Shown here: in pieces, positions 9,123-56,747 of the stretch
Layout of the letters: every line of letters begins with the position of its first letter
Position numbering within the stretch: position 1 is the first letter of the stretch
The notes under the pieces: generated by a model
Databases searched by the model: none
Told to the model about the DNA's origin: nothing
The model's input: only the letters and a program-made list of their open reading frames with translations
Assembly: GCA_963675295.2 (NCBI GenBank)
Contig: CAXXKJ010000002.1
Span: 800,001 to 864,000 of the forward strand
Source: a bacterium
GTDB lineage: Bacteria > Electryoneota > Electryoneia > Electryoneales > Electryoneaceae
Direction of reading: 5' to 3'
Length of the DNA: 64,000 nt
Made by a program: the position numbers and the translations under genes

Positions 9123-9157
9123 AGTCTCTGACTCACAACTCATCACTAACTACTCAC
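9123..9157. repeat. Degenerate 7-bp tandem array just past the gcvT stop
   Basis: gactcac aactcat cactaac tactcac. Confidence 0.7.
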
Positions 9158-9165
9158 AGCTGCCG

Positions 9166-10254
9166 TCAGTACGGCCGCTTGTAGAACGGCGTTTCGACGA
9201 CACGCGCGGGTTTGCGTTTGCCACGGATATCGAGTTCGAACTTGGTGCCGACGGCGGTAAACTCCTTCGTCAGGTACGCGAGGCCGATGCCCTTGTCGAG
9301 GGACGGCGACCACGCGCCGCTGGTGACATCCCCGATCTTCGTGTCGCCCTGGTAGCATTCGTAGCCGTGACGCGGGATCGCCTTTTCTTCCACCTCAAAG
9401 CCGATCAACTTGCGGCCGAGGCCTTTTTCCTTGGCGGCGAGCACGGCTTCCCGTCCGATGAACTCTCCCTTGTTGACCTTGGTGATCCAGCCGAGGCCGG
9501 CTTCCAGCGGGTTGTGTTCGTCGTCGATGTCGTTGCCGTAGAGCGCGAATTTCATCTCGAGCCGCAGGGTGTCACGTGCGCCGAGGCCGATCGGTTCGAT
9601 GCCGAACTCGGCGCCGGCTTCCATCACGGCGTCCCAGACTGCCGGCGCGGATTCATTGTCAACGTACAGCTCGAAGCCCGCTTCGCCGGTGTAACCGGTG
9701 GCGGAGATGACCGCGCGCTGCCCGGCGACTTCGCCCTCACGGAACCAGTAGAACTTGATGTCCTCGAGGTTGGTGTCGGTGAGTTTCTGGATCACGGCGG
9801 GCGCGTTCCGGCCCTGCACCGCGAGCAGGCTCATGCGGTGGGAGGCGTCATCGATGGTGACAGTCGACGGCGCGTGCTGCTCGATCCACGCCAAGTCTTT
9901 CGCGTGGTTCGCGGCGTTGACCACGAGCATGAAACGGTCTTCGAAACGGTACACGATCAGGTCGTCGATGAAGCCGCCGTTTTCGTACAACATCGCCGAA
10001 TATTGCGCCTGGTTGATCTGCAGCTTGGCGGGGTTGTTAACGGTGATCTTGTTGATGAAATCGAGCGCGCCGTCGCCCTTGATCCAGATTTCGCCCATGT
10101 GGGAAACATCGAACACGCCCACCGATTCACGCACCTTCTGGTGTTCGGCAGTGATCGAATGGTACTGGATCGGCATGATGTAACCGGCGAACGGGACCAG
10201 CTTCGCCCCGGCGGCGACATGTTTCTCGTGCAATGCGGTTTGCTTGCCCTCCAT
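9166..10254 (-). CDS. gcvT: Glycine cleavage system aminomethyltransferase T
   Basis: FAGYIMPIQY, FDVSHMGE, VVNAAN, TGYTGEAGFE, GLGARDTLRLE, VTSGAWSPSL. ATG at 10254 with GAGG RBS. Confidence 0.97.
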   Translation of the reverse strand: MEGKQTALHEKHVAAGAKLVPFAGYIMPIQYHSITAEHQKVRESVGVFDVSHMGEIWIKGDGALDFINKITVNNPAKLQINQAQYSAMLYENGGFIDDLIVYRFEDRFMLVVNAANHAKDLAWIEQHAPSTVTIDDASHRMSLLAVQGRNAPAVIQKLTDTNLEDIKFYWFREGEVAGQRAVISATGYTGEAGFELYVDNESAPAVWDAVMEAGAEFGIEPIGLGARDTLRLEMKFALYGNDIDDEHNPLEAGLGWITKVNKGEFIGREAVLAAKEKGLGRKLIGFEVEEKAIPRHGYECYQGDTKIGDVTSGAWSPSLDKGIGLAYLTKEFTAVGTKFELDIRGKRKPARVVETPFYKRPY

Positions 10255-10272
10255 GGGGCCTCCTCTAAAAGC

Positions 10273-10304
10273 AGTCGTGAGTCCTGAGTCTTGAGTCCTG
10301 AGTG
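10273..10304. repeat. 7-bp tandem array upstream of gcvT
   Basis: agtcgtg agtcctg agtcttg agtcctg agtg. Confidence 0.85.
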
Positions 10305-10348
10305 AAACACCAACCCAAGACAAGGAATCAAACGGTATCGTTAAAAAC

Positions 10349-10374
10349 AGTTATGAGTTGTGAGTTGTGAGTCG
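10349..10374. repeat. Second 7-bp tandem array upstream of gcvT
   Basis: agttatg agttgtg agttgtg agtcg. Confidence 0.8.
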
Positions 10375-10510
10375 AAGAAAAAACTCCATATCCCGCAGAT
10401 CGAGCTCGAAAGGACTTCTGTACCAGATTTAATATCAAGGCCAATCGATACCAGATCTGAATATGAGCAATATGCTGTGAATAAAAAAGCACGCTGCTAA
10501 AACTGACTAC

Positions 10511-11041
10511 TTAATCTAAATTATTTGACTCGTAGCTTCGAATTTCATTTTTTAGACTTTCAATTTTCTCCTTATCTGCCCGTAGTTTTTGTTTTTCTTT
10601 CTCTTTTTTTCTTAAAAGCTTTAACTGTTTTTGTAACTCTTTTACTCTTTTCTTAGTTTTAATTCTTTCTAAGTCACGCGGATCTTCTCCATATTTATTA
10701 ACTCCTTTTGTTCCTGGAAAAAAAGCTACATATATTACCAATAATACGCTAATAAAAGGAACAAAACATAAATATAAAAAGTATTTGGACTTATTTAGGT
10801 CATGAAGTCTTTTAGAAAATAAACTATGAACTAATAATAAAAACATTAGAGCAATAAGTATTCGAATAATCCAAAGATAATCTCCCTCCTGTCCTATAAG
10901 CTCTGGACGCCTTATAAGTATAAAGAATATTAGATTAAACAAAAAATTTAGCGGCCAAAAGTACACATTAAAAGGAAGTCTTGATATTCTACCTTCATCT
11001 TCAAATAGGTAATAAAAGAGTTTTGAAGAAACGCTTTTCAT
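10511..11041 (-). CDS. DUF805-family membrane protein with Lys/Glu coiled-coil tail; very AT-rich
   Basis: F..EGRISR, KRLHDLNKS, PGTKGVNKYGEDP are DUF805 hallmarks. Confidence 0.85.
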   Translation of the reverse strand: MKSVSSKLFYYLFEDEGRISRLPFNVYFWPLNFLFNLIFFILIRRPELIGQEGDYLWIIRILIALMFLLLVHSLFSKRLHDLNKSKYFLYLCFVPFISVLLVIYVAFFPGTKGVNKYGEDPRDLERIKTKKRVKELQKQLKLLRKKEKEKQKLRADKEKIESLKNEIRSYESNNLD

Positions 11042-11062
11042 GTCAAGATCCTATCCTAAGGG

Positions 11063-12010
11063 CTAAGCATAAATCAGTTTATTTACTTTCTCCACAATCT
11101 TCCACCAGCGCAACCCATACAGGTCGAGCAGTTCTTCGCTGTCGCCGGAACGGCCGTAGCGGTCTTCGACGGCAACATAGTCCATCGGTACCGGCGCATG
11201 TTTGCTGACTGTCTGCGCCACGACAGACGCGAGGCCGCCGTGCAGCTGGTGTTCTTCCGCGGTGACAATCGCCTTTGTCTCACGGGCCGCGGAAAGGATA
11301 ACCTCCGTATCCAGCGGTTTCAAGGTGCTCATGTTGATCACCCGGAGGCCAATGCCGTCCTCGGCGAGCTTGTCGTGCGCCAACAAGGCTTCCGCAACCA
11401 TGGTACCAATGGCGATGCAGGTGGCGTCGTTGCCCTCGGCCATGATCCGGGCCTTGCCGACCTCGAACGGGTCCGTTTCGGTGGTGACAATCGGCACGGA
11501 TTCGCGTCCGAAGCGGATGTACACGGGTCCGTTGATCGCGTGCGCCGCTTCCACCGCCTTGCGTGTTTCCCAGTAGTCGGCGGGGGTGAGCACGGTGTAG
11601 TTCGGCAACGCCAGCATGCACGCGAGGTCTTCCATCATCTGGTGCGTCGCGCCGTCCGGACCAACACTGAGCCCTGAGTGCGCCCCGCCGATCTTGACGT
11701 TGCACGGTGTGTAGCCGACCGTCACCCGCAGTTGATCGTACACCCGTCCGACGCCGAACGCGCTGTAGGTCACGTAAAACGTCACCTTGCCCATCAGTGA
11801 CATTCCGGCCGCGGCGTTGACCATGTGCATCTCGCTGATGCCCATCTCATAAAACCGGTCGGGCCAGCGTTCGCCGAAACGGTCGACGTTGCACGAGATC
11901 GCGTTGTCGCCAACCATCACGACCACGTCGCCGTGTTGTTCGCCGATGTCGATCAGGCCGTCGCCCCAGCCTTCACGTGTCTTTTTGCGGTCGAACGTGC
12001 GCATCGTCAT
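11063..12010 (-). CDS. Transketolase, C-terminal subunit
   Basis: RFYEMGISE, RVYDQLR, HSGLSVGPDGATHQ, GPVYIRFGR, TLKPLD, TAEEHQ..GGL. ATG 12010 overlaps the upstream stop. Confidence 0.93.
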   Translation of the reverse strand: MTMRTFDRKKTREGWGDGLIDIGEQHGDVVVMVGDNAISCNVDRFGERWPDRFYEMGISEMHMVNAAAGMSLMGKVTFYVTYSAFGVGRVYDQLRVTVGYTPCNVKIGGAHSGLSVGPDGATHQMMEDLACMLALPNYTVLTPADYWETRKAVEAAHAINGPVYIRFGRESVPIVTTETDPFEVGKARIMAEGNDATCIAIGTMVAEALLAHDKLAEDGIGLRVINMSTLKPLDTEVILSAARETKAIVTAEEHQLHGGLASVVAQTVSKHAPVPMDYVAVEDRYGRSGDSEELLDLYGLRWWKIVEKVNKLIYA

Positions 12011-12906
12011 GCGGTCACCTCCGATCCCGCGAGACGCGCCCGCCATTCATCGTAACTGGTGCCGATTTGCATCAACGCCGTGTTCGCCTGGTCGACGGTT
12101 GGCGGTTTGCCGTGCCAACGGTAATCGTCCTCGATATCACGCCACCCTTTGCCCATGAGAGTGTGTGCGAGGATGACGGTCGGCTGTTGCGTCAGCTGGT
12201 CGGCCTCACGCAAGGCGTCCAGGATCTGGTTCATGTCATGTCCGTCGATCTCGAGCACATGCCAGTTGAACGATTCCCACTTCTCCGCCAGAGGTGCGAT
12301 GCCGATGACATCCTCGACGCGTCCGTCAATCTGCGCGCCGTTGTAGTCGACAATCGCGGTCAGGTTGTCGCAGTGGTAATGGGCTGCCGACAGCGCTGCC
12401 TCCCAGATCGAGCCCTCTTGCAATTCGCCGTCGCCGAGACAGCAGTAAATCCGCCGCGGGTGCTTGTCCAGCTTGGACGCCATCGCCACACCGATCGCGA
12501 CGCTCAGTCCCTGGCCCAATGATCCGGCGGACGCCTCGATGCCCGGTGTGTCATGCGCGGACGGATGCCCCTGCAGATTGCCCTTCAATTGCCGGAAGCC
12601 GAGCAGTTCGGAAAGCGGGAAGTAGCCTCGTTCCGCCATCACCGAGTAGATCAACGGCGAGATGTGCGCGTTGGACACATTCCAGAAGTCGCGGTCGTCG
12701 AAGGACGGGTTGCGTGGGTCGATGGTCGCGGCATGAAACAGGATCGCGGTGATGAAATCGCAGGCAGACAGCGAGCCGCCGGTGTGGCCGCTGTTCGCGT
12801 TGGCGATCATCGTCAGGATGTCACGGCGGACATCGGTCGCGATCGTACGGAGCTCGTCGGCGGGTAGCTCGAGACGGCCGGGGGCGGTTCGATCCACAGT
12901 CGGCAT
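12007..12906 (-). CDS. Transketolase, N-terminal (TPP-binding) subunit
   Basis: SGHTGGSLS, LQGHP, GSLGQGLS, GDGELQEGSIWEA, DGHD, WHGK. Start at ATG 12906. Confidence 0.93.
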   Translation of the reverse strand: MPTVDRTAPGRLELPADELRTIATDVRRDILTMIANANSGHTGGSLSACDFITAILFHAATIDPRNPSFDDRDFWNVSNAHISPLIYSVMAERGYFPLSELLGFRQLKGNLQGHPSAHDTPGIEASAGSLGQGLSVAIGVAMASKLDKHPRRIYCCLGDGELQEGSIWEAALSAAHYHCDNLTAIVDYNGAQIDGRVEDVIGIAPLAEKWESFNWHVLEIDGHDMNQILDALREADQLTQQPTVILAHTLMGKGWRDIEDDYRWHGKPPTVDQANTALMQIGTSYDEWRARLAGSEVTA

Positions 12907-13058
12907 AGCGTTGCGTTTCCATGAGTTGCGCCAGGGGTGCGCGGGAAGGTAGAGCGTGCTCGGGGGACAAGGCAACTCAGGGGCGAGAATCAGACGCAGA
13001 TCGTCCAAGCGATTGTGCAGGGAAAATCCAGCTTGCATCAGGACGTCAGTTCCGCAGA

Positions 13059-14537: not shown

Positions 14538-14646
14538 AGGTTCACTCACATCAAATCAGCATGGGTTCAAAGCATATCCAGTAATATACGACTGCTTAGT
14601 CGAAAGATGGAAATCGCGGAACATGTTCCCTGATTCATCCAGGAAC

Positions 14647-15882: not shown

Positions 15883-16165
15883 GGGGTGGAAGGTAAGGGT
15901 TGAAAGATTGGAACGGGGTTGGGTTCGGGAGACCACAGATGTAAAGCCTGTTTTCGAGGTATGGGCTTTGGAGCAATCATCGACACTGTCGTATACTTAT
16001 TCGAGCAAATCGATTTACTGGTTTGTGCCGGGATTCCGTAATTGTCAGGGGAGGTCGGAATTCCGCTATCAGAAGCTGGTTTGACCTATTTGCCACATCC
16101 GCAGGCCGTTCATTCAGCGTGGATCTCCCCGGGTCATTGATGTCGATCGAACGTCGAGGCGTCTC

Positions 16166-17419: not shown

Positions 17420-17712
17420 TAGCCTGAGTGCATGTGCCCCTGGAGGCATAGGTATTTGGATTCACGTGTGTCTGAAGACATGTGCCCCTGATGGCTCCGC
17501 CAGCAGGGGTTTTCTGAGGTAGGCTAGCCCGCGTTGTCGCAGCCAACACGGGCAAGAGCAACGAATTGATCATCTCGACTCATTTCACACCCTCCGGAAA
17601 TCCTGAGGGTGTTTTATTTGGTGACGGTTTTAGATTGTTGTACCCCACACGTTGCTTTCCACCGTGCTGGATTGACAGATTATATCAACACTCGAAACCC
17701 GAGATCGGACGA

Positions 17713-26157: not shown

Positions 26158-26194
26158 ACAGTCAGCGGTCTGCGGACGTGGTCGACGAACTGCG

Positions 26195-26266
26195 GGGTGG
26201 CGGACTGCGTGCTACGGACTGCGGGTGGCGGACTGCGTGCTACGGACTGCGGGTGGCGGACTGCGT
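26195..26266. repeat. Heptamer array organised as a 28-bp higher-order repeat (2.6 copies)
   Basis: (gggtggc ggactgc gtgctac ggactgc)x2 plus gggtggcggactgcgt. Confidence 0.9.
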
Positions 26267-26278
26267 TAAGTCTCTATC

Positions 26279-26304
26279 TTACCACGGACTTAAGTCCGTG
26301 GTAA
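26279..26304. repeat. REP-like perfect palindrome (CCACGGA...TCCGTGG family)
   Basis: ttaccacggacttaagtccgtggtaa is its own reverse complement. Confidence 0.8.
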
Positions 26305-33042: not shown

Positions 33043-33075
33043 AACTCACCACTCATCACTCATTACTCACAACTG
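33043..33075. repeat. 7-bp tandem array past the stop of 33084..35981
   Basis: aactcac cactcat cactcat tactcac aactg. Confidence 0.8.
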
Positions 33076-42432: not shown

Positions 42433-42765
42433 ATGTCAAAGAACAAACGTCGTGACGGGCTGGTGTTTTCCACCGGGCCTGTCCGCTCAGAACCTGAACC
42501 GGAGTCCCCGGACACGGGAAAACCGTCCGGACCGTCGGAAGCCGTGCTACGTATCGAGAAGAAGGGGCGTGGGGGAAAGACGGTGACCCTTGTTGAATTG
42601 CGCAACACGCATCAGCCGCGCGCGAAGGAGATTGGTAAAAAGCTGAAAAGCGCGTGCGGGGTCGGCGGCACGACCCGGGGGTTGGTGATTGAGGTGCAGG
42701 GTGATCAGCGCGACGCGGTCCGTCCGATCCTGGAGAAGGAAGGGTTTCGTGTCCGGGGTGGGTGA
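42433..42765 (+). CDS. yciH: Translation initiation factor SUI1/YciH family
   Basis: LVFSTG, EKKGRGGKTVT, LKSACGVGGT, IEVQGDQR. Confidence 0.92.
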   Translation: MSKNKRRDGLVFSTGPVRSEPEPESPDTGKPSGPSEAVLRIEKKGRGGKTVTLVELRNTHQPRAKEIGKKLKSACGVGGTTRGLVIEVQGDQRDAVRPILEKEGFRVRGG

Positions 42766-43893: not shown

Positions 43894-43900
43894 CACAACC

Positions 43901-43931
43901 AGCTGTGAGCGATGAGCTCTGAGCTGTGAGT
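43901..43931. repeat. 7-bp tandem array after the menA stop
   Basis: agctgtg agcgatg agctctg agctgtg agt. Confidence 0.8.
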
Positions 43932-43937
43932 AAAATC

Positions 43938-46450: not shown

Positions 46451-46878
46451 TGAACCTGCAGGGCAGATCGAAGGAAGGCGACCTGCAGCAGATGCCGGAA
46501 ATCAACGTGGTGCCGTTGATCGACGTGTTCCTTGTGCTGCTGGTGATTTTCATGATCACCGCGCCGGTGATCAAGACGGCGATCGACATGGGTCTGCCGC
46601 AGGCGGAAACCGCGACCGCGGATCCGTCGCAGGGGATCACGGTCAAGATCCTGCAGGACGGTACGGTGTGGATTGATGAGGAACGTGTGTCGTTGCAGGC
46701 GTTCCCGTCGCGGTTCCGGGATATTTACTCGAACACGGGGCCGGGCGGTGATTTTCAGCCGGTGTTTCTCGCGGCGGGTGAGGAGGTGCCGTACGGGACG
46801 GTGGTGACGGTGCTGGATGAACTCCGCCTCGCGGGAGTTGAGGATCTCGGCCTGTTGACGCAGAAGGAAAGTCGGTGA
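46450..46878 (+). CDS. tolR: TolR (ExbD/TolR family)
   Basis: EINVVPLIDVFLVLLVIFMITAP, VPYGTVV. Confidence 0.9.
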   Translation: MNLQGRSKEGDLQQMPEINVVPLIDVFLVLLVIFMITAPVIKTAIDMGLPQAETATADPSQGITVKILQDGTVWIDEERVSLQAFPSRFRDIYSNTGPGGDFQPVFLAAGEEVPYGTVVTVLDELRLAGVEDLGLLTQKESR

Positions 46879-46879
46879 G

Positions 46880-46987
46880 GAAGTCGAAGGGAAGTCGGAC
46901 AGAAGTACAAAGTCGAAGAGAAGTCGAAAGTCGAACTGAAGTCGAAAGACTAAGGACGAGAGACTAGAGCCCAGAGACGAGAGACGG
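46880..46987. repeat. Two adjacent degenerate short-repeat arrays filling the tolR-tolA spacer
   Basis: AAGTCGA-type units at 46880-46946, then agactaa ggacgag agactag agcccag agacgag agacgg at 46947-46987. Confidence 0.75.
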
Positions 46988-46993
46988 TAGTAC

Positions 46994-47818: not shown

Positions 47819-49128
47819 AGCCATCGCGATTGCTTCCGCTGTTGCTGCTGCTGGTGTTTGCCGTTTCGAGTTTGTTGACTGGTCCCGTGTTCGCACAGAC
47901 CAGCGAGGATGAGGATGAAACGACCGAGGTCACACTCGAGGCGTTCGGGCAGGGTTACTACCGTCCGGGGTTGATTTACGGCATCCGGTTCGAGCCGGAA
48001 TTGAACGCCGAGCAGCAGATGGCGTCCAAGCTGTTCGATGAACGCCTGCGGTTCGCGTTGGACTGGTCGGGCTATGTCAATTTGCAGCTGACCGACTCGT
48101 TGACCTTCTCCGGCCCGCCGGAAACCGAACAGGCCGAACCGGAAAGCGAATTGCGAGTTGAAATTGCAGCGGATGAAAGCGATCCGGACCTGGTGTACGC
48201 CACGATCATGCTGGCGGAACCGGAGGGGGAGGCGTGGTACACCGGACGGATCGGGTTCAAGCGATCGTACGCCAATGAGTCCGGCGATGCCGCAGCCGAA
48301 ACGATCATCGTGCAGCTGACCGGGATGACGCCGCCGTTCCGTTCGCGGATCGTGTTTGTCGAGTCGAAGGGGAACAACGTCAAGGAACTGATGCTCGCGA
48401 AGTATGACGGGTCAACCAAGCAGCAGTTGACGAACGACGGCTCAATTGCGTTGTCGCCGAGCTGGTCGCCGGACGCGAAGAGTATCGTCTTCTGCAGTTT
48501 CCGAGACAAGGGCGACGCTGACCTTTTCATCGCCGATCTGGCGGGACGCCGGATCCGTCGCCTCGCCCCGCGTGAGGGCACCGACGCCGCGCCGGCATGG
48601 TCGCCGACGGGCCGGGAGATTGTGTTCGCGGGGTCGAACGGTGAGAACACAAACCTGTACATCGTCGACGCGGATGGCCGCAATCTGCGCAAGCTGACCA
48701 CCACCCGCGGGATCGACACCTCGCCGAGCTGGTCGCCGACCGGGCGGGAGATTGTGTTCATGTCCGACCGCAACGGCCACCCGCACATCTACCGCATGGA
48801 CAAGTACGGCTCGAATCTGCGTCGTCTCACCTATGAGGGCAGCTACAATTCCGACCCGGCGTGGTCACCGTCCGGCGACCGGATTGTCTACTGCCGCCGC
48901 ACCGACAACGGCTTCCAGCTGCACTCGATAGACCCGTTGGGCGATGTGGATGTCGCGTTGACCAATGAACCCGGCGATCACCTCGACCCGAGTTGGTCGG
49001 CGGACGGGATGAAGATTACGTACTCGTACCGTGGCCGCATCTGGGTGATGAGCGCCGATGGCACCAACCGGCGGCAGCTGGCGTCCGATGGTCTGCAGCC
49101 CGATTGGTCGCCGATTTTGGAACGATAG
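47815..49128 (+). CDS. tolB: TolB beta-propeller (PD40 repeats)
   Basis: Signal peptide; FRSRIVFV; repeated SPSWSP.G..IVF.S. Confidence 0.9.
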   Translation: MKPSRLLPLLLLLVFAVSSLLTGPVFAQTSEDEDETTEVTLEAFGQGYYRPGLIYGIRFEPELNAEQQMASKLFDERLRFALDWSGYVNLQLTDSLTFSGPPETEQAEPESELRVEIAADESDPDLVYATIMLAEPEGEAWYTGRIGFKRSYANESGDAAAETIIVQLTGMTPPFRSRIVFVESKGNNVKELMLAKYDGSTKQQLTNDGSIALSPSWSPDAKSIVFCSFRDKGDADLFIADLAGRRIRRLAPREGTDAAPAWSPTGREIVFAGSNGENTNLYIVDADGRNLRKLTTTRGIDTSPSWSPTGREIVFMSDRNGHPHIYRMDKYGSNLRRLTYEGSYNSDPAWSPSGDRIVYCRRTDNGFQLHSIDPLGDVDVALTNEPGDHLDPSWSADGMKITYSYRGRIWVMSADGTNRRQLASDGLQPDWSPILER

Positions 49129-49158
49129 TCTATGGTCTATGGTCCATGGTCAATGGTT
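49127..49158. repeat. 7-bp tandem array (GGTCTAT type), left flank of the four-helix-bundle gene
   Basis: agtctat ggtctat ggtccat ggtcaat ggtt; starts inside the tolB TAG. Confidence 0.85.
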
Positions 49159-49225
49159 ACACAAAACCACAAAACGGCCATAGCCATCTGAATCGGTATC
49201 TGAAGTATATGGGGGAGAATAACTA

Positions 49226-49588
49226 GTGCGTGATCATACAAACTTGACCGCATTTACGTTGGCTGAGGAGTTGGCTATTGCTGTGTATGTTCATACAAGA
49301 GATTTTCCTCGCGAAGAATTGTTTGGGTTAACATCACAAATGAGAAGGGCTGCAGTCTCGGTCGCCTCAAACATCGTTGAAGGTGCAGCCAGATCAAGTC
49401 ATGCGGATTTCCTGCGATTTCTTGACATTGCGTTCGGTTCGGTCCGTGAACTGGAATTTCAGATATCCCTTGCGGCAAAACTCGACTACCTGCAAGAACC
49501 TCGCAGCACCCAATTGTCGGCCTTGGCACAACGTACTTCGAAAGTGTTGCATGGTTTGATCCAGTCTTTGAAAACGAAAAGACCGTGA
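49226..49588 (+). CDS. Four-helix-bundle protein (TIGR02436 / 23S rRNA IVP-like family)
   Basis: FPREELFGLTSQMRRAAVSVASNIVEG..R....F..FL.IA.GS..EL..Q signature; GGGAG RBS, GTG start. Confidence 0.93.
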   Translation: MRDHTNLTAFTLAEELAIAVYVHTRDFPREELFGLTSQMRRAAVSVASNIVEGAARSSHADFLRFLDIAFGSVRELEFQISLAAKLDYLQEPRSTQLSALAQRTSKVLHGLIQSLKTKRP

Positions 49589-49598
49589 ACTCACACCC

Positions 49599-49703
49599 AG
49601 ACCACAGACCACAGACCACAGACCATAGACCATAGACCAAAGACCATAGACCACAGACCATAGACCATAGACCAAAGACCATAGACCACAGACCATCGAC
49701 CAG
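49599..49703. repeat. 15-unit 7-bp tandem array (AGACCAN), right flank of the four-helix-bundle gene
   Basis: 14 x AGACCA[c/t/a] plus cgaccag; reverse complement of the left-flank unit. Confidence 0.95.
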
Positions 49704-49817
49704 AGCCCCCATCCTCCGCTCCCGGAGGACAGAACAACTGTCCATGGATCTGGGCAACTGCTGGCGGGATGCGCTCCCTGATCGTACGTTAATCCGTGGA
49801 CTTGAACTGAAACGGGG

Positions 49818-51005
49818 GTGCCTTCCATGCGACACGCACAGCTTCGAGTAGCAGCAGCCAGTCAATCCGGCCTTCTTCCTTTTGGTTTCCTTTTAGTTCT
49901 TCTGGTGTGTACGGGACTTGCGATGACCGTGCCCGCCTTGGCGCAGCCGACGCAAACCTGGATCTACGCATTTGATGTCTACTATGTGTTTCAGGATATC
50001 TATGACCTTGCGATCACATCGGACGGCAACGTGGTTGCAGTCGGACGTTGGGATGATCGAGCGAGCGCAGTTAAGCTGGACAGCGATACGGGGCAGGTGC
50101 TGTGGGAATACCACACGAACGACAACGATTCGCAGTTGAACTGTGTAAGTTCGGTTGAAGACGGCAGCGGGGATATGCTGATCGGTGGTTGGAAGAATGA
50201 AGATGCTCTTCTAGCCCGGTTGTCAGCACAGGGTGAATTGATCTGGATGCGGCTCTTCAATCCGAGCCCAACGTTGAATCCCGATTGGATCAGTGATATG
50301 CTGATTCATCCGAGCGGTAATATCTATCTCTGCGGTCTTCTGTCCGGACAGAAGACTTATGCTTGGTTACGTGCTGATGATCCCAGCCAACACCAGGTGT
50401 ATCGCAACTTGCCCGTTGTGATACCCCGTGGGCGACGTCTGGAGGTGGCTTCACCATCCTCATTTCTCATTGGGGGTGACATCTGGAGTGGCACAACGTT
50501 ATATGGTGGAGTAGCACAGGTTTCAACATCCGGTGAGGTAGAGTGGATTCACCAGGCACCCGATGTGAACTACACATACGGAGTAGCTCGGACGCAGGAC
50601 GCTATCACTGTGTTTGTGGGTCCGATGAGTGACTTCGGCGAACCCGTACGTGCATTCATACGCGGCCTCGATGGACAGGGCAATCAGGTCTGGGGGCTGG
50701 AACATGGTGTAGGCGATGATAACAGCGTTTACCACGATGTTTGCCCGGCGAATCCAGGAGGTTCCAATGATGTCTATGTCGTAGGGAATCTGTATGAGCA
50801 GAACGGCGGCCCCAGCCGTCAGGTTTTGCGCCGGATTTCGTCATCCGGGGATATCATCTGGACAGTTTACGGCACGGACGGCATCAGCTACCACAACGAG
50901 TGGCGGGTGGTGAAAGCGCTGAATAATGATGGCGTGATTGTCGCGGGTAAACGATTCGTGGCCCACAACGAAGCCGACCTGGTCATCGAACGCTACGATC
51001 CGTGA
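49818..51005 (+). CDS. Secreted probable beta-propeller, paralog 1 of 3
   Basis: Signal peptide ending ALA-QPTQTW; G...W blade motifs; ends VIERYDP. Start 49818 or 49827. Confidence 0.78.
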   Translation: MPSMRHAQLRVAAASQSGLLPFGFLLVLLVCTGLAMTVPALAQPTQTWIYAFDVYYVFQDIYDLAITSDGNVVAVGRWDDRASAVKLDSDTGQVLWEYHTNDNDSQLNCVSSVEDGSGDMLIGGWKNEDALLARLSAQGELIWMRLFNPSPTLNPDWISDMLIHPSGNIYLCGLLSGQKTYAWLRADDPSQHQVYRNLPVVIPRGRRLEVASPSSFLIGGDIWSGTTLYGGVAQVSTSGEVEWIHQAPDVNYTYGVARTQDAITVFVGPMSDFGEPVRAFIRGLDGQGNQVWGLEHGVGDDNSVYHDVCPANPGGSNDVYVVGNLYEQNGGPSRQVLRRISSSGDIIWTVYGTDGISYHNEWRVVKALNNDGVIVAGKRFVAHNEADLVIERYDP

Positions 51006-51059
51006 TTAACGTAATCTAAGCAGTAGCTACGGGTTTGAAATGATAAGGGGAGATGTCCG

Positions 51060-52241
51060 ATGAAACGAATTTGGACCTACAGCAGAGTTGGTCCCGGCAC
51101 ACACTTCCAGCAGGTGTTGTTTGGCATGGTCGCGCTATTGTTTGTAACGGTGTCCGCGTGCGCCCAGCCGACGCAGACCTGGATTCATGAGTTTCCAACC
51201 CTGCCGTATCCATGGGAATCGGTGCATGAAATGGTGATCACCACGGATGGCCGTGTCGTGGTGGTTGGTGCATGGAACGACATGTGGGGAATTCTGTGTC
51301 TTGACCTTGCCACGGGCGATCCGCTGTGGGAGTTGTCAGGTGGTGATGATCTCACGAGAATGACCAGCGTTGTGACGACGGATGACGGAACGGGTGATAT
51401 CATTGCCGGAGGCCACCCGCAGTTTGACGCGTTTCGTTCCTATCTCACCCGGGTCAATGCGCAGGGGGAGATCGTCTGGTGGCGCGATTTGCAGCACTCA
51501 AGCCTTCCAAACCGCGTGTACACGATACAGGCTCTGATGAGAATGGGCCCTGACAAGGTGTTTGCGTGTGGGCAGATCAACAGCCGGCCAACAATCGGCT
51601 GGGTGAATATCGATAATCCTGGTGTCCACTGGGCACGTTCAATCAATTCAGGGGACGGCCCGTGGACGATGGCAATGGCTCAATATTCCGGTACATCGGT
51701 CCTGATGGGTGGTAAGATCGCTCAGGGCAACAGCTTCAACGGCATCGTACTGAATATGAGCCGCCAGGGCCAGCTACTCTGGGCATACCAGACGAATCAC
51801 ATGATTTCGGTACTTGGGATAGCAAGTACGATGGACGGAACGGTCATCGCGGCCGGGTACGAAAGCAGGTTGGGTGTTCAAGAATACCCCGCCCGCATGG
51901 AGGGATTGAACGCAAACGGTGAGTTTCTCTGGGCAATCGAGCAGGGTTTGGATAATCATAGCCTGTTCTATGATGTGTGCACGACCGATCCGTCTGGATC
52001 GAACGATGTGTACGTCGCGGGAAGTGTCAATGAGGAAGAGGATGGTCCGAACTACCAGCTGGTGCACAAGGTCAGTTCCACGGGCGAGATCATCTGGACA
52101 CTCTACGGTTCAGCCGGAAACAGTGATCAGAACGGTTGGACTGCCGTTGAAGCGCTGGACAATGGCGGACTGGTTGTCGCCGGAGTGCGTTCGCCCGATT
52201 ACCCGGACGAAACGGTCGTGATCGAGCGCTACGATCCGTGA
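51060..52241 (+). CDS. Secreted probable beta-propeller, paralog 2 of 3
   Basis: ACA-QPTQTW ... VIERYDP; GGGGAG RBS. Confidence 0.8.
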   Translation: MKRIWTYSRVGPGTHFQQVLFGMVALLFVTVSACAQPTQTWIHEFPTLPYPWESVHEMVITTDGRVVVVGAWNDMWGILCLDLATGDPLWELSGGDDLTRMTSVVTTDDGTGDIIAGGHPQFDAFRSYLTRVNAQGEIVWWRDLQHSSLPNRVYTIQALMRMGPDKVFACGQINSRPTIGWVNIDNPGVHWARSINSGDGPWTMAMAQYSGTSVLMGGKIAQGNSFNGIVLNMSRQGQLLWAYQTNHMISVLGIASTMDGTVIAAGYESRLGVQEYPARMEGLNANGEFLWAIEQGLDNHSLFYDVCTTDPSGSNDVYVAGSVNEEEDGPNYQLVHKVSSTGEIIWTLYGSAGNSDQNGWTAVEALDNGGLVVAGVRSPDYPDETVVIERYDP

Positions 52242-52339
52242 TCAGGATTTCCAACGGGCAGTGCATGGTTAGACACGATACGGGAATACGGTGCCGGCCG
52301 GAATTTCAGCAATCAGCGCCAGCTACGAGGATATGATTG

Positions 52340-53515
52340 ATGAAGCATGAATGGGATGTTCGTACGGGTGGCTCCGTCACACGGTATTGGCAGATGTGGC
52401 TAGGCCTGGCAGCGATATTGATTGCCGCGGTGCCAGTGTTCGCCCAGCCGACACAAACCTGGACTCACCAGATTTCGGTGCAAGGGATGGCGTATGACAC
52501 CGTTCATGACATGGTGGTGACGCCGGATGGCCGGGTGGTGGTTGTCGGAGCCTGGCACGACATGTGGCGGGTTCGTTGTCTTGATCTTGGCACGGGCGCT
52601 TTTTTGTGGGAGGTCTCCGGAGGTCAGGAGTACTGGATGTTGACCAGTGTGGTGTCTGCGGATGACGGTTCCGGTGATGTAATCGTCGGGGGATATGAAC
52701 GATTCAGCCCGTTCGAAATTTACATCGCCCGCATCGATGCGCAGGGCCATATCGTCTGGGAACGCACGCTTGAGAATCCGAACTACAACCGCGTGTTTAC
52801 CTTAAAGGATCTATTGCGGATAGGACCAGATCGTGTCTATGGCTGCGGCCAGTTCAACAGCCAAACCTCGATCGGGTGGGTCAATATCGACAATCCCAAT
52901 TCGCACCAGGTCTTTTCCTTTGATCGGGAGGAAGGGCCGTGGACGCAATCCCTGGCTAAGTATTCGGATAACTCAATGTTGCTGGGCGGCAATTTCTTTG
53001 AGGGGTATACATTTTTCGCGAATGTACTTCACGTGACGACCTCGGGGCAGATGCTCTGGGTGTATCGCTCCTATGACATGCGGTCGGCGGATTGTCTGGC
53101 TCGAACACTTGACGGCACAACGATGCTTGGGGGGTATCATCCGTATTCCGGTACCGGAGTGTACGCGGCCCGGGTTGAGGCTGTCGATTCGAATGGTGAA
53201 TACCTGTGGTCGATCGAACAGGGTGTAGACTATTTCAGTGTCTTTAACGACATCTGCATGACGGATCCTGCGGGCTCGGATTACGTTTATGTCGCGGGTC
53301 AGGTGGTTGAGGAGCTGGATGGTCCGAACCGTCAGCTGGTGCACAAGGTGAGCTCGACAGGTGAGATCATCTGGACCCTGTACGGTGCGGACGGAGGCAG
53401 CACCGATTGCGAGTACACGGCGGTGGACGCGTTGCCGGATGGTGGTCTGGTTGTCGCTGGAACTCTCTCGGGGTATTCGGTTGGTCAGGTCGTGATCGAA
53501 CGTTACGATCCATGA
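52340..53515 (+). CDS. Secreted probable beta-propeller, paralog 3 of 3
   Basis: VFA-QPTQTW ... VIERYDP; GAGG RBS; start 52337 or 52340. Confidence 0.8.
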   Translation: MKHEWDVRTGGSVTRYWQMWLGLAAILIAAVPVFAQPTQTWTHQISVQGMAYDTVHDMVVTPDGRVVVVGAWHDMWRVRCLDLGTGAFLWEVSGGQEYWMLTSVVSADDGSGDVIVGGYERFSPFEIYIARIDAQGHIVWERTLENPNYNRVFTLKDLLRIGPDRVYGCGQFNSQTSIGWVNIDNPNSHQVFSFDREEGPWTQSLAKYSDNSMLLGGNFFEGYTFFANVLHVTTSGQMLWVYRSYDMRSADCLARTLDGTTMLGGYHPYSGTGVYAARVEAVDSNGEYLWSIEQGVDYFSVFNDICMTDPAGSDYVYVAGQVVEELDGPNRQLVHKVSSTGEIIWTLYGADGGSTDCEYTAVDALPDGGLVVAGTLSGYSVGQVVIERYDP

Positions 53516-53641
53516 TCCAAACGACAGGATCTTATCCAAGCCCCCGTGACCCGGATTGCGCGTGTCTTGGGGCTTGTTTGTTGTACCCGAAAAAAATTCA
53601 CGTATCTTCACTTCCATCGTCCATAGCATAGCCCATAGCTG

Positions 53642-54487
53642 ATGAACTACAACCCTGACCAGATCCGTGCCGCGCTGGATGAGATGGCGCGTTTGAACAC
53701 CGAATCGTCCAACCCGCGCAGTGAAACGTTGAGCGAGCTGAGCACGTCCGCGATCCTCGAGCTGATCAACGAGGAGGACGCGACGGTCCCGGCGATTGTC
53801 AACGCCGCGGTTCCGACTCTGACGAACGTCGTCGAGGCGGCGGTCGGTGCGATCAAGTCCGGCGGACGGCTGGTCTATGTCGGCGCGGGAACCTCGGGCC
53901 GGCTTGGTGTGCTGGACGCCGCCGAGTGTCCACCGACCTACGGCGTTCCGCCCACCATGGTCACCGGCATCATCGCGGGCGGGGACAGCGCGTTGAAGGT
54001 CGCCGCCGAGGGGGCGGAAGATGACGAACAGCAGGCGCTGATTGACCTCGAGGCGCATGGCGTGAACGAAAAGGACACCGTCCTCGGCATCACCGCTCGG
54101 GGTCAGACGCCGTATGTGCGCGCGATCCTGCGCGAGGCAAAGCGGCGCGGTGCGTGGGCCGGGCTGTTGACCTGCAATCCGGTGGCGCATGATCCGGAGC
54201 TGGATGAGCTGGTCGTGCTCGATGTCGGACCGGAGGTGGTAACCGGATCGACGCGGATGAAGGCGGGGCTGGCGACTAAGATGGCGTTGACGATGATCTC
54301 CACCACGACGATGGTCCGCTTGGGTCGTGTCGAGGGCAATCGGATGGTGCGTCTGATGCCGAACTCGACGAAACTCAAGGCGCGTCAGGTGAAGCTGCTG
54401 ATGGAGACGAAGGGGTTGACGTTGGAAGCGGCAGCGGAGCGTCTCGAGGCGGCGGGTGGTGATTTGACGAAAGCACTGGGCATGTGA
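53642..54487 (+). CDS. murQ: N-acetylmuramic acid 6-phosphate etherase
   Basis: TESSNPRS, YVGAGTSGRLGVLDAAECPPTYG, EGAED, GPEVVTGSTRMKAG. Confidence 0.96.
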   Translation: MNYNPDQIRAALDEMARLNTESSNPRSETLSELSTSAILELINEEDATVPAIVNAAVPTLTNVVEAAVGAIKSGGRLVYVGAGTSGRLGVLDAAECPPTYGVPPTMVTGIIAGGDSALKVAAEGAEDDEQQALIDLEAHGVNEKDTVLGITARGQTPYVRAILREAKRRGAWAGLLTCNPVAHDPELDELVVLDVGPEVVTGSTRMKAGLATKMALTMISTTTMVRLGRVEGNRMVRLMPNSTKLKARQVKLLMETKGLTLEAAAERLEAAGGDLTKALGM

Positions 54488-54528
54488 TCCATTGCCGGGC
54501 GGTGGAAGTGTAAAGGGAGGAAAGAGAG

Positions 54529-54870
54529 ATGAAGCTGGTGGAACCGTTCCCGGAGTTTGTCAAGAATCTGCCTGAAATTGATCTGCCGGTTCCGGGCGCG
54601 CGGGGCTGGATGATACAGGGTGCGGGGCAGCAGGTGGTGTTCGCTCAGTTTGACGAAACGGTGGACGTTCCCGAGCACTCCCACTCCGAACAGTGGGAGT
54701 TTGCGTTGGGCGGACGTGTCGATCTGAAAATGGACGGGCAGGTGTTGACGCACACGGCCGGTGAGAATTTCTACATCCCGGCGGGCAAGCCGCACGGCGC
54801 GACGGTACACGCCGGCTACCATGCGATGATGGTGTTCAACGAGTCGGACCGGTACAAACCGAAGGCGTGA
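54529..54870 (+). CDS. Cupin-domain protein
   Basis: VPEHSHSEQW...G...FYIPAG.PHGA. Confidence 0.9.
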   Translation: MKLVEPFPEFVKNLPEIDLPVPGARGWMIQGAGQQVVFAQFDETVDVPEHSHSEQWEFALGGRVDLKMDGQVLTHTAGENFYIPAGKPHGATVHAGYHAMMVFNESDRYKPKA

Positions 54871-54876
54871 ACGAAG

Positions 54877-54904
54877 AGTGATGAGTTGTGAGTCATGAGT
54901 AAGT
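54877..54904. repeat. 7-bp tandem array after the cupin stop
   Basis: agtgatg agttgtg agtcatg agtaagt. Confidence 0.7.
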
Positions 54905-55004
54905 AAACAGCGAACAAATAACAACCTCGTTCGCCCCCGACCAGCTTGCTGGTCGGGTTTGGCCGTGCCGTCAGGGCACATCGCGAACAGAGCGCGTAGA
55001 AAAA

Positions 55005-55036
55005 ACGATGCCACGGATGTGAATCCGTGGCATCGT
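55005..55036. repeat. REP-like palindrome; left direct repeat of the IS
   Basis: acgatgccacggat-gtga-atccgtggcatcgt. Confidence 0.9.
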
Positions 55037-56650
55037 CAGACTGCTGACAAACCCCGTCATTTGATGGGGTTTGTTTTGTATTCACACGGCACATCCTACT
55101 GGTTGGATTTGTGGTATAGTTGGCAGGTTGTGTTTGGTTCTTCGCTCGATTTTTCTATCGAGACCGTTGAGCGTGGTGCGCTGGGATAGAAGACCGGCTA
55201 AATAGGTCCATAGTCTTGAGATAGAGGGGTGTTTCGCCATTGTCATGGCGATCTTCTTCATGTTCTGGCAGGCGGCGGACAGCAGGCATTGTTCACGTGC
55301 TCCGGCTATCGAGCGCAGCCGGGCATAGCGATGGCCATACAGTTGTTTGGCTTCGCCGAAGCTGCGTTCGACCGTCTCCCGTCGTCGCCGGTACGTGGCC
55401 CGTCCGCGTTCTGTCCGAGCGGTCGCGATCATCTTTTCACGGCTGGCCTGCCACACGTGCCGGGTGACCACCTTGCGGTGATTGGCGCTTTCGGTGCATT
55501 GCTGCAACAGGGGACAGAGGACACAGCACGACGGGTCGGAAACATATTCCTGGTAGCCTTCACGTGTCGTCGTGCGATACGGTAGTGTCTGGCCGCCGGG
55601 ACAGTGGTAGACATCCCCCAGCGAATCGTACACAAACAGTCGTTTTGCCAGCATTCCCTTCTTGCGTGTCGTACGTACCGAGCCGATCACGCCGTCGATC
55701 TTTCGATCCTCCAGCCCCTTGCAGATGGCGGCGGTATTGTAGCCGGCGTCGAGACCGACCCTTTCCACCGGGAAGTGGAATTTGCGAATCTGTGTGTCGA
55801 GACGCTCGAGGTAGGGGGTGCTGTCATGTACATTGCCGGGGGTGACATGCGTGTCGGTGATGATTCCGGCCTTGTTGTCTACGGTACGGTGGTCAAGGTA
55901 GAAAAAGCCCTGCGGCTTGCCGTCCCGCACCATGAAGCCGCTGTCCGGATCGGTGGTGCTGACCTTGATTTCCTTTGTCGCCGGCGGTGATGAATCGTCA
56001 TTGTCACGTTTCTTCAGTGGCTTTTTGCCATGCGCCAGGCGATCCGCATCCACCGCCTCTTCCAGATCGGACAGATACGACTTCGTCGCCACTGTCACCT
56101 GCCGCTTCTTGAACTTCTTCTTGTTCGCGCTGGCTTTCAGGTGCGTCGAATCGGTGAACAAGACCCGGCCATCGACCAGGCCACGACGGATCGCCAGCAG
56201 CACGATCTCGTCGAAGATCTCCTGGAAGATGGTGCTTTCACGGAAACGGCGGCGTCGATTCTGGCTGATCGTGGACGCGTCCGGCACCTTGTCACGCAGA
56301 TCCAGCCCGAGGAACCAGCGATAGGCAACATTGACCTGGATCTCACGCACCAGCTGACGCTCGGACCGAATTCCGTACAGGTAACCGATGAACAACATCT
56401 TGAACAGAAGGACAGGGTCAACAGCCGGACGGCCATTGTCGGCGCTGTAGAGATGCTTTACACGATCCCGGATAAACGAAAAATCAATTGCCGCATCAAT
56501 CTTCCGCAAAAGATGATCGTCCGGGACCAAATCGTCAATGTAAATAAGCTCCGCTGCGCTTTGATGAGCTTTGGAAGTAGGTAGCATCTACAAAGATACA
56601 AAACAAATCCCCACAGGTCGAGAGCCCGTGGGGACTTTGTCAGCAGTCTG
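55037..56650 (-). mobile_element. IS1182-family insertion sequence
   Basis: Perfect 15-bp terminal inverted repeats cagactgctgacaaa (55037-51) and tttgtcagcagtctg (56636-50); each end continues into a hairpin and TTTGTTTTGTA; one transposase ORF; 32-bp flanking duplication. Confidence 0.93.
55082..56587 (-). CDS. IS1182-family DDE transposase
   Basis: LVPDDHLLRKID, GRPAVDP..LFKML..GYLYGIRSERQL, DSTHLKA, STTDPDSG, LDAGY, YRRRRETVERSF...K..YG. Confidence 0.95.
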   Translation of the reverse strand: MLPTSKAHQSAAELIYIDDLVPDDHLLRKIDAAIDFSFIRDRVKHLYSADNGRPAVDPVLLFKMLFIGYLYGIRSERQLVREIQVNVAYRWFLGLDLRDKVPDASTISQNRRRRFRESTIFQEIFDEIVLLAIRRGLVDGRVLFTDSTHLKASANKKKFKKRQVTVATKSYLSDLEEAVDADRLAHGKKPLKKRDNDDSSPPATKEIKVSTTDPDSGFMVRDGKPQGFFYLDHRTVDNKAGIITDTHVTPGNVHDSTPYLERLDTQIRKFHFPVERVGLDAGYNTAAICKGLEDRKIDGVIGSVRTTRKKGMLAKRLFVYDSLGDVYHCPGGQTLPYRTTTREGYQEYVSDPSCCVLCPLLQQCTESANHRKVVTRHVWQASREKMIATARTERGRATYRRRRETVERSFGEAKQLYGHRYARLRSIAGAREQCLLSAACQNMKKIAMTMAKHPSISRLWTYLAGLLSQRTTLNGLDRKIERRTKHNLPTIPQIQPVGCAV

Positions 56651-56682
56651 ACGATGCCACGGATTTGAATCCGTGGCATCGT
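56651..56682. repeat. REP-like palindrome; right direct repeat of the IS
   Basis: acgatgccacggat-ttga-atccgtggcatcgt, 31/32 identical to the left copy. Confidence 0.9.
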
Positions 56683-56700
56683 GTTTTTGTCTTGATCTTT

Positions 56701-56747
56701 GTCTCAAGTCTCAAGTCTCAAGACTCAAGACACAGGACTCAGGACTG
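56701..56747. repeat. 7-bp tandem array past the stop of the S8 gene
   Basis: gtctcaa x3, gactcaa, gacacag, gactcag, gactg. Confidence 0.85.

What the first reader, a model, noticed from the sequence alone, without database searches (positions are those of the whole stretch)
9123..56747. Heptamer arrays at gene boundaries follow a strand polarity rule
Seen: read on the adjacent gene's sense strand, arrays after stop codons are G-rich. TGAG-type follows gcvT (9123), the 33084 gene (33043), menA (43901), cupin (54877) and S8 copy A (56701); TGGTC-type follows tolB (49127); CGGAC-type follows the 24607 gene (26195). Most start within about 10 bp of the stop. Arrays before starts are the C-rich complement: CTCA-type before gcvT (10273, 10349), AGACCA at 49599, CCATAG before murQ (53614-53640), AGAC before tolA (46947). 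The rule holds for genes on both strands and the period stays 7 while the unit changes. The 46880-46987 pair is the least clean case. Known: heptamer STRRs occur in cyanobacterial intergenic DNA. Inference: a mechanism coupled to transcription direction writes or selects these arrays, and lone arrays may be scars of lost four-helix-bundle cassettes. gcvT has complementary arrays on both sides.
Basis: partly seen in the sequence, partly recalled or inferred. Interest (0 to 1): 0.75.

Follow-up and report, generated by a model that had tools for sequence, protein, structure and literature searches.

The report
Heptamer arms of four-helix-bundle cassettes
Short seven-base repeats at gene edges look like the inward-facing ends of a tiny insertable DNA element, whose full form carries a small ring-forming protein gene of unknown function, which would explain why such repeats have a fixed orientation in many bacteria.

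Summary
The arrays are real: 10 intergenic period-7 arrays against 0.2 expected. The G/C polarity holds for 11 of 13. The exceptions are 46947, which is G-rich, and 49599, which follows the stop of a TIGR02436 four-helix-bundle (4HB) gene and is C-rich.

The rule is not about transcription direction. It equals 'the G-rich strand points away from the nearest gene', the geometry of a convergent inverted pair. It is already published for Xanthomonas and Nostoc (PMC4692102). It held for 32 of 42 arrays in 80 TolQ loci.

What I did not find in print is the 4HB link. 18 of 25 4HB loci have locus-matched complementary heptamer arms, against 4 of 114 other genes in those loci. Empty orthologous junctions lack arms, and ORF-less arm pairs also insert and nest.

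Best reading: a REPIN-like mini-element family, with the window's lone arrays as its surviving arms. The mobilising enzyme is unknown, and most arrays have no partner arm.

The parts
49123..49159 (+). 5' (G-rich) arm of the four-helix-bundle cassette, TGGTCTA-type, overlapping the tolB stop
   Evidence: (I11: 86% complementary over 35 nt)
49226..49588 (+). TIGR02436 / PF05635 four-helix-bundle gene (120 aa), homolog of pentameric Xcc0516; absent in close relative L001
   Evidence: (110.9 bits, cut-off 24), (2GSC E=5e-21)
49595..49702 (+). 3' (C-rich) arm of the cassette, AGACCAY about 15 copies, complementary to the 5' arm
9131..9158 (-). lone TGAG-type arm 7 bp after the gcvT stop (degenerate); absent in L002
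10273..10303 (+). TGAG-type arm 18 bp before the gcvT start (G-rich strand points away from gcvT)
10349..10372 (+). second, stacked TGAG-type arm in the same orientation; L002 also has two stacked arms here
26165..26266 (+). degenerate CGGAC-type arm (7/14/28 periodicity) after the 24607 gene
   Evidence: D19
33044..33069 (-). lone TGAG-type arm 14 bp after the stop of the 33084 gene
43901..43930 (+). lone TGAG-type arm after menA; position, orientation and core kept in L001 and L002
46880..46946 (+). AAGTCG-type G-rich arm after tolR; expanded in L001, absent in L002 (14-bp junction)
46947..46986 (+). AGAGAC-type array before tolA; G-rich, not complementary to 46880-46946 (rule exception)
53614..53638 (+). 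degenerate CCATAG-type C-rich arm before murQ; at least 7 perfect copies at the matching place in L001
54875..54900 (+). TGAG-type left arm after the cupin gene; likely partner of 56701-56746; absent in L002
55082..56587 (-). IS1182 transposase gene lying between the two arms of the cupin|S8 junction
   Evidence: 477 bits, cut-off 270; I1
56701..56746 (-). TGAG-type arm after S8 copy A (right arm of the cupin|S8 pair); paralog S8 copy B has none

Best explanation
The arrays are the ends of a family of very small insertion elements built from two convergent, complementary heptamer arrays, usually of about 4-5 units each. The long form encloses a TIGR02436 four-helix-bundle ORF, as at tolB. The short form encloses only a spacer.

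SHOWN: both forms occur as clean presence/absence differences at otherwise tight gene junctions, with no arms in the empty sites, and they can nest. Because an element fills a junction, its left arm abuts the left gene and its right arm abuts the right gene, whichever strand those genes are on. That yields 'G-rich after stops, C-rich before starts' for host genes and the reverse for the 4HB gene itself. A host gene with insertions at both of its junctions gets the gcvT pattern.

INFERRED: the window's lone arrays are surviving arms, left after one arm or the ORF was lost or the junction was rearranged, and slippage then changes the copy number.

SPECULATIVE: the Avd-like 4HB pentamer binds the 7-nt repeats on single-stranded RNA or DNA and, with an enzyme encoded elsewhere, moves its own cassette and the ORF-less copies, as RAYT does for REPINs.
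For: 18 of 25 4HB loci (the window plus 24 of 27 plasmid hits) have a complementary arm pair: 16 G-rich 5', 2 ties, 0 C-rich 5'. Controls: 4 of 114 other genes in the same plasmid loci (0 G-rich 5'), 1 of 977 TolQ-locus genes, 0 of 44 other window genes (Fisher p=1.5e-13 against the 114; loci are not independent). Arms match within a locus while the unit differs between loci: 6.05 vs 4.04 of 7 over 21 loci, and permutation p=1e-4 after reducing to 10 unit families.

One Nostoc-type cassette (arms plus ORF, 82-84% identical) sits in different gene neighbourhoods. Empty orthologous junctions are 3-4 bp with no arms (L097, L107, L108). Two different cassettes occupy neighbouring junctions of one operon (L094 vs L097).

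ORF-less arm pairs are inserted inside 4HB ORFs (L104, 182 bp; L102, about 290 bp) and at the next junction, with nesting (L098, L101, L104 vs L094, L097). The L104 insert is a dispersed family (46 plasmid records, 106 places, 30 records at 80% cover or more).

The Azospirillum 23S rRNA intervening sequence is the same design and folds as an arm-closed hairpin. Xcc0516 has a GGGAATC array over its start. The Coxiella IVS has heptamers before its ORF (PMC4990558). The geometry rule holds for 32 of 42 arrays in the 80 TolQ loci, against a 397 of 733 baseline in array-free junctions.
Against: Most arrays have no partner: only 8 of 43 in TolQ loci (0.3 expected by chance), and of 7 TGAG arrays in the window only two pair up. 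No 4HB gene was found in 80 TolQ loci (1.19 Mb) holding 45 arrays. 7 of 25 4HB loci failed the strict heptamer-pair test, and one of them uses octamers (L089).

The menA array keeps its position, about 4 units and its TGAG core across three genomes about 81-86% identical in the region. The core is 94-100% invariant and the other three positions 39-64% (the arrays were picked and phased on that core, so this is partly circular). This looks more like retention than decay.

The before-start half of the rule is weak outside the window: 13 of 21, against a baseline of 243 of 430. The after-stop half is 19 of 21. No catalytic activity is known for the protein, and the boundaries show no single target-duplication rule. 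The direct insertion evidence comes from cyanobacterial plasmids, not from this lineage. The direction of the window/L001 difference cannot be polarised, because L002 has a different gene order there.
Confidence: 0.6

Rival explanations
1. Transcription- or translation-coupled selection: arrays arise by slippage and are kept only in the orientation tolerated or useful in 3' and 5' untranslated regions, for example as RNA-protein binding sites or by avoiding Rho-loading or false ribosome-binding sites.
For: The after-stop side is stronger than the before-start side (19 of 21 vs 13 of 21). The menA and gcvT-start arrays persist in relatives. PMC4679880 proposes translational regulation for TAACTGA arrays, and PMC4692102 shows that most arrays are transcribed.
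Against: The rule does not depend on gene strand, and G-on-sense fits worse (27 of 42; 11 of 19 strong arrays). 4HB genes show the reverse polarity. Antisense cassettes keep their arms (L081, L082). An A/C-rich-left family supplies 7 of the 10 violations and several still sit as inverted pairs. Arms appear together by insertion into armless junctions. PMC4692102 found no regulatory role.
Confidence: 0.17
2. The arm pairs are MITE-like elements moved in trans by ordinary transposases (IS200/IS605-type or RAYT-type Y1 enzymes, or others). The 4HB gene is only a passenger or a binding protein.
For: The L104-type ORF-less element has conserved ends, inner hairpins and no target duplication in three copies, which recalls IS200/IS605 derivatives (recalled, not tested). 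The L102 insert shows a 5-bp duplication instead. The window has REP-like hairpin families next to several arrays.
Against: It does not explain why 4HB genes from cyanobacteria, Azospirillum and this genome each carry their own matched unit. No Y1 transposase family was reported for the 45 window ORFs scanned, although the rest of the genome was not seen.
Confidence: 0.2
3. Strict scar model: every lone or paired array marks a site that once held a 4HB ORF which was later deleted.
For: The L001 tolB junction lacks the ORF but keeps short remnants of both arms (a weak alignment).
Against: ORF-less pairs insert as such, including into intact 4HB genes. The tolR|tolA junction has arrays in the window and in L001 but no 4HB gene in any of the 80 loci. 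Xanthomonas has 186 arrays.
Confidence: 0.1
4. Neutral replication slippage with a leading-strand bias; the gene-relative polarity is incidental.
For: Copy number varies freely between relatives. Polymerase slippage has been proposed for heptamer excess (cited in PMC4679880 and PMC4692102).
Against: Only 8 of 13 arrays are G-rich on the positively skewed strand. It cannot produce locus-matched complementary arms or clean paired insertions.
Confidence: 0.04

Closest known systems
GGGAATC / GGGGA(C/T)T repeats of Xanthomonas and Nostoc (PMC4692102; passages, sections 13 and 16, supplement search, and part 1 of 6 of supplement 2 read)
   Same: Intergenic heptamer arrays, mostly 4 units, G-rich on the coding strand within 50 bp after stops and on the non-coding strand before starts; 70-75 cases of convergent inverted repeats in Xanthomonas.
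   Different: That study treats one G-tract unit as a quadruplex motif, found no link to mobile elements and did not remark on 4HB genes, although its table lists an array over the Xcc0516 start. The window's units lack G-tracts, and several unit families coexist.
TAACTGA repeats of Beggiatoaceae, cyanobacteria and Bacteroidetes (PMC4679880; abstract, introduction and passages read, supplement searched)
   Same: Heptamer arrays of 2-6 copies in fixed orientation just before start codons; one reverse-oriented set right after a stop in Flexibacter.
   Different: Single unit; interpreted as translational regulation; no 4HB term found in its supplement.
23S rRNA intervening sequences encoding S23p / TIGR02436 (PMC4990558, passages read)
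   Same: A 4HB ORF enclosed by terminal inverted repeats that form an RNA stem; heptamer repeats before the ORF; the Azospirillum case has the same arm design.
   Different: Here the cassette lies between protein genes, not in rRNA helix 45.
REPIN / RAYT system (PMC3116915, abstract read)
   Same: Inverted doublets in extragenic space acting as non-autonomous units, decaying to singlets, with a cognate gene tied to each repeat group.
   Different: The arms are tandem heptamer arrays rather than single palindromic REPs, and the enclosed gene is a four-helix-bundle protein, not a Y1 tyrosine transposase.
DGR accessory protein Avd (bioRxiv 10.1101/2023.10.23.563531 and PMC10053308, passages read)
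   Same: Homologous pentameric four-helix-bundle barrel; Avd binds an RNA element and is needed for reverse transcription.
   Different: The window protein scores below the Avd cut-offs (27.8 vs 80 bits; 24.4 vs 40 bits), and no reverse transcriptase family was hit in the window.
Nostoc trnL intron P6b repeats, class II NNTGAGT (PMC4476775, passages read)
   Same: Same TGAGT core as the window's commonest family, forming an RNA stem.
   Different: Lies inside a group I intron and was not linked to 4HB genes in the passages seen.

Membership tests
TIGR02436 / PF05635 four-helix-bundle protein | Score above the curated cut-offs | tested here: met
   TIGR02436 110.9 bits (cut-off 24), PF05635 108.9 (cut-off 33.8)
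TIGR02436 / PF05635 four-helix-bundle protein | Homology to the solved pentamer Xcc0516 | tested here: met
   2GSC, E=5.4e-21 over residues 2-92; the oligomer state of the window protein itself was not tested
DGR accessory protein Avd | Score above the Avd model cut-offs | tested here: not met
   NF033474 27.8 vs 80; PF22296 24.4 vs 40
DGR accessory protein Avd | Linked reverse transcriptase with template/variable repeats | tested here: not met
   No RT family among the hits shown for 45 window ORFs; the rest of the genome was not seen
Polar intergenic heptamer repeats (PMC4692102 type) | Period-7 arrays, intergenic, within about 50 bp of a gene end | tested here: met
Polar intergenic heptamer repeats (PMC4692102 type) | G-rich strand points away from the nearest gene | tested here: met
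   11 of 13 in the window; 32 of 42 in TolQ loci
Polar intergenic heptamer repeats (PMC4692102 type) | G-tract units able to form a G-quadruplex | tested here: not met
   Window units lack repeated GGG tracts
REPIN / RAYT | Inverted doublets over-represented in extragenic space | tested here: met
   8 of 43 arrays have a complementary partner vs 0.3 expected; most are still singlets
REPIN / RAYT | Cognate gene is a Y1 (RAYT) tyrosine transposase | tested here: not met
   The enclosed gene is TIGR02436
REPIN / RAYT | Presence/absence at orthologous sites (insertion as a unit) | tested here: met
   Nostoc plasmids; window vs L001, direction unknown
REPIN / RAYT | Transposition intermediates or shown mobilisation by the cognate protein | not testable with these tools
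   Needs reads or an assay
Classical MITE / IS derivative | Consistent target-site duplication or target motif | tested here: inconclusive
   5-bp duplication-like ends in L102 and L098/L101, none in L104 or L097
23S rRNA intervening sequence | Located inside a 23S rRNA gene | tested here: not met
   The window cassette lies between tolB and a beta-propeller-like gene; the feature is met for L093

The most novel reading that the evidence does not exclude
TIGR02436 four-helix-bundle genes, long annotated as '23S rRNA IVS / S23 ribosomal' proteins of unknown function, are the autonomous members of a widespread mobile-element class without a known transposase. Each Avd-like pentamer recognises its own heptamer array, roughly one unit per subunit, and drives insertion of arm-flanked cassettes and of ORF-less arm pairs into gene junctions, rRNA helices and introns. 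This would make STRRs, the Xanthomonas and Beggiatoa heptamers, rRNA IVSs with ORFs and the bacterial heptamer excess products of one selfish system.
Probability: 0.3. Interest if true: 0.88.

Novelty: new variant of a known kind. Interest (0 to 1): 0.62.

Why it matters
Two old puzzles may have one answer: why heptamer repeats are the commonest long simple repeats in bacteria and sit with fixed polarity at gene ends, and what the very large four-helix-bundle family does. The arm/ORF pairing gives a direct test, because each protein comes with its own predicted target unit. The polarity alone is not new. It also warns annotators that 4HB genes found inside cas, nrd, tol or acc operons are probably inserted passengers, not pathway members.

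Tried and rejected
Replichore-only orientation: rejected (8 of 13 G-rich on +). G-rich-on-sense transcription rule: fits worse than geometry. 46880/46947 as a complementary pair: rejected. G-quadruplex function: units lack G-tracts.

The same polarity for other periods was not seen: period 6, 10 of 18; period 8, 6 of 10; period 9, 8 of 22; period 10, 2 of 10; period 11, 3 of 6.

A 4HB gene at orthologous tol junctions of relatives: 0 of 80 loci. Only 3 of those loci are close relatives, so this is a weak test. 4HB genes in phages: no match. L105 and L106 as scars: rejected, they hold other small ORFs without arms. Array-encoded tails in 120 homologous proteins: a few suggestive C-termini, not scored, not used. 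Adenine-specific (DGR-like) variation in the units: judged by eye from the unit lists, no consistent pattern, not formally tested.

The protein tree with arm units shows units tracking shallow clades, which co-inheritance alone explains. I do not count it as co-evolution. The window cassette's RNA fold is only moderately stable against shuffles (z=-2.6). Rows dropped before counts: plasmid hits H5, H8 and H17 were not fetched (same scores as H4, H7, H18); 2 edge and 1 tied array were left out of 45. Gene ends in the TolQ loci come from my own simple gene caller, which misses atypical genes and misplaces some starts.

Literature searches for the heptamer-arm/4HB link found no paper stating it. 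The library lacks most subscription papers, and I have an unverified recollection that database curators have noted short tandem repeats beside such genes. Metagenome and viral contig collections stayed unchecked. The genome-level correlation of array count with 4HB copy number could not be run.

Full report
1. Observation. The window is a GC-rich bacterial contig with tol-pal, gcvT, menA, cydAB and many genes with a secretion-tail domain. The listed arrays are present. A lag-7 detector finds 10 intergenic segments where shuffled intergenic DNA gives 0.185. Periods 5, 6 and 9 give none and period 8 gives two. The TGAG family alone gives 15 matches at 7 sites against 0.35 by chance. Three arrays (9131, 26165, 53614) are too degenerate for the strict detector and rest on family match, TRF and the L001 comparison. 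Scored by G minus C, 11 of 13 arrays obey the rule. The failures are 46947, which is G-rich and not complementary to its neighbour, and 49595. The latter starts just after the stop of a TIGR02436 gene at 49226-49588. With that gene and the IS1182 treated as inserts, the score is 12 of 13. Arrays 54875 and 56701 are best read as one inverted pair split by the IS1182.

2. Restating the rule. 'G-rich after a stop, C-rich before a start, on the sense strand' is the same statement as 'the G-rich strand points from the nearest gene into the intergenic space'. Flipping a gene does not change it, so it carries no information about transcription direction. It is what a convergent inverted pair filling a junction would give. 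PMC4692102 (passages, sections 13 and 16) already reports this for GGGAATC and GGGGA(C/T)T repeats, including closeness to the 5' neighbour 'irrespective of the ORFs orientation' and 70-75 cases of inverted repeats. Part 1 of 6 of its supplement 2 lists such pairs at groES|groEL, atpA|atpG and others. PMC4679880 (abstract, introduction, passages) reports the start-side bias for TAACTGA.

3. Independent test. One genome scan with TolQ returned 80 loci (1.19 Mb). With my own gene calls these held 45 intergenic period-7 arrays, against 4-13 for other periods not divisible by three and 20-25 for periods 6, 9 and 12. After dropping 2 edge cases and 1 tie, 32 of 42 obeyed the geometry rule (p=0.0009). 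The figures were 26 of 35 without the two closest relatives, 17 of 19 for strong arrays and 18 of 22 taking one per locus. The baseline in array-free junctions was 397 of 733. G-on-sense fitted 27 of 42. The after-stop side was 19 of 21, but the before-start side was only 13 of 21, near its baseline of 243 of 430. Seven of the ten violations belong, by eye, to one A/C-rich-left family, several of which still sit as inverted pairs. Only 8 of 43 arrays had a clear partner arm (0.3 expected). No 4HB gene was found in these loci.

4. The four-helix-bundle link. The window protein is a clear TIGR02436/PF05635 member, homologous to pentameric Xcc0516. It has at least 2730 homologs, the best 60-71% identical, including Planctomycetes and Deltaproteobacteria entries. 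It matched 27 plasmid records and no phage, and I fetched 24 of the 27. Including the window, 18 of 25 loci have complementary heptamer arms, never C-rich first, against 4 of 114 other plasmid-locus genes, 1 of 977 TolQ-locus genes and 0 of 44 window genes. Units differ between loci but match within a locus (p=1e-4 on 10 unit families). The sample is mostly cyanobacterial and partly redundant. Of the 7 misses, two have a transposase gene abutting the 5' side, one uses octamers, one is frameshifted, and three have short or degenerate arms visible by eye. Two cassettes lie antisense to both neighbours with unchanged arm order. In Azospirillum the same design is the 23S rRNA intervening sequence. 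The Coxiella IVS paper notes heptamers before its ORF (passages), and the Xanthomonas table puts an array over the Xcc0516 start.

5. Insertion as a unit. In a Nostoc plasmid operon, 5 records carry the cassette at one junction, 7 are about 418 bp shorter, 1 carries a different cassette at the next junction, and 2 hold other small ORFs. I read 2 of the 7 short ones plus L097. Their empty junctions are 3-4 bp and have no arms. The same cassette occurs in other gene neighbourhoods at 82-84% identity. ORF-less arm pairs are inserted inside the 4HB ORFs of L104 and L102. The L104 insert recurs in 46 plasmid records, while for L102 only an inner part recurs. At the upstream junction, L098, L101 and L104 carry ORF-less pairs that L094 lacks (L097 also lacks the L098 insert). 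In L098 one pair is nested in another, which produces stacked same-direction arms and gives the sandwiched host gene a C-arm before its start and a G-arm after its stop. That is the gcvT pattern.

6. Close relatives of the window. L001 (TolQ 98%) lacks the tolB 4HB gene but keeps short arm-like remnants. It has expanded arrays and two REP-like inserts at tolR|tolA. L002 (84%) has a 14-bp tolR|tolA junction and no array after gcvT or the cupin gene. It has a different unit after S8, but keeps TGAG arrays after menA and before gcvT. Within the window, S8 copy A has an array and its 91%-identical paralog has none. Arrays therefore come and go on a short time scale, but some persist with an invariant four-base core.

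7. Mechanism. Shown: arm/ORF architecture, locus-matched complementarity, and clean presence/absence of long and short forms. Inferred: the window's lone arrays derive from such elements by loss of one arm or by junction rearrangement, with slippage changing copy number. Speculative: the protein is homologous to Avd, a positively charged pentamer that binds an RNA element and is needed for DGR reverse transcription (passages), so it may bind the 4-5 units of an arm and recruit an enzyme encoded elsewhere. It is not Avd by score, and no RT family was hit in the window. The end structures are inconsistent, and one ORF-less family recalls IS200/IS605 derivatives (recalled), so mobilisation by an ordinary transposase remains open. 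The prevalence and persistence of lone arms leave room for selection on some of them.

8. Comparison and novelty. It works like REPIN/RAYT (abstract read) but fails membership, because the cognate gene is not a Y1 transposase. The polarity is known, and the TGAGT core matches the Nostoc trnL P6b class II motif (passages). PMC3936711 (passages) treats these genes as cas-associated, and PMC8700078 (passages) lists them as strain-specific, both consistent with insertion. Eight searches found no paper stating that 4HB genes are generally enclosed by matched heptamer arms, within a library that lacks most subscription journals. I read only part of the supplements of PMC4692102, and bioRxiv supplements were not available.

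9. Verdict. Observation partly confirmed. Interpretation partly supported: the 4HB link holds, transcription coupling does not, and the scar model is only one route. New variant of a known kind, interest 0.62.

Noticed in passing
window 55000-56687: IS1182 sits in a palindromic hairpin that is present on both sides of it. The same hairpin family occurs at 26282 and 43944, each just after a heptamer array.
   Followed up: partly
window 3926-3978 and 17482-17534; L001 11230-11455 and 13664-13690: A second REP-like repeat family. Two copies are inserted in the tolR|tolA array of L001 and a piece lies in its tolB junction.
   Followed up: partly
window 56753-64000: Duplication of an S8 peptidase gene with its upstream region. 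The first acyl-CoA dehydrogenase copy (61108-61314) is only an N-terminal fragment.
   Followed up: partly
window 49818-53515: Three paralogous beta-propeller-like genes between the 4HB cassette and murQ; one copy seen in L001 before the contig ends, none in L002.
   Followed up: no
window 5986-63548: About ten genes end in a Por_Secre_tail (T9SS-type) domain in an organism whose TolQ relatives include unnamed MAGs, Delongbacteria and Eisenbacteria.
   Followed up: no
window 49160-49176, 10304-10348; L002 1360-1425: Left arms are often followed by an A/C-rich tail, and arm plus tail appears duplicated before gcvT in both genomes.
   Followed up: no
L027, L036, L052, L071: An A/C-rich-left heptamer family forms inverted pairs with the opposite G/C polarity.
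   Followed up: partly
L089 19830-20360; L003 9470-9830; L029 1839-1920: Octamer arms flank the Gemmatirosa 4HB gene, and related period-8/9 arrays occur in TolQ loci, so the period is not always 7.
   Followed up: no
L083, L088, L090: 4HB cassettes lie inside cas operons (cas6|cas4, cas10|cmr3), probably as passengers.
   Followed up: partly
window 42433-42765 and 5558-5875: Small genes missed in my first gene list: a SUI1-family gene and a DUF3467 gene, the latter implying a shorter RarA than the longest ORF.
   Followed up: yes
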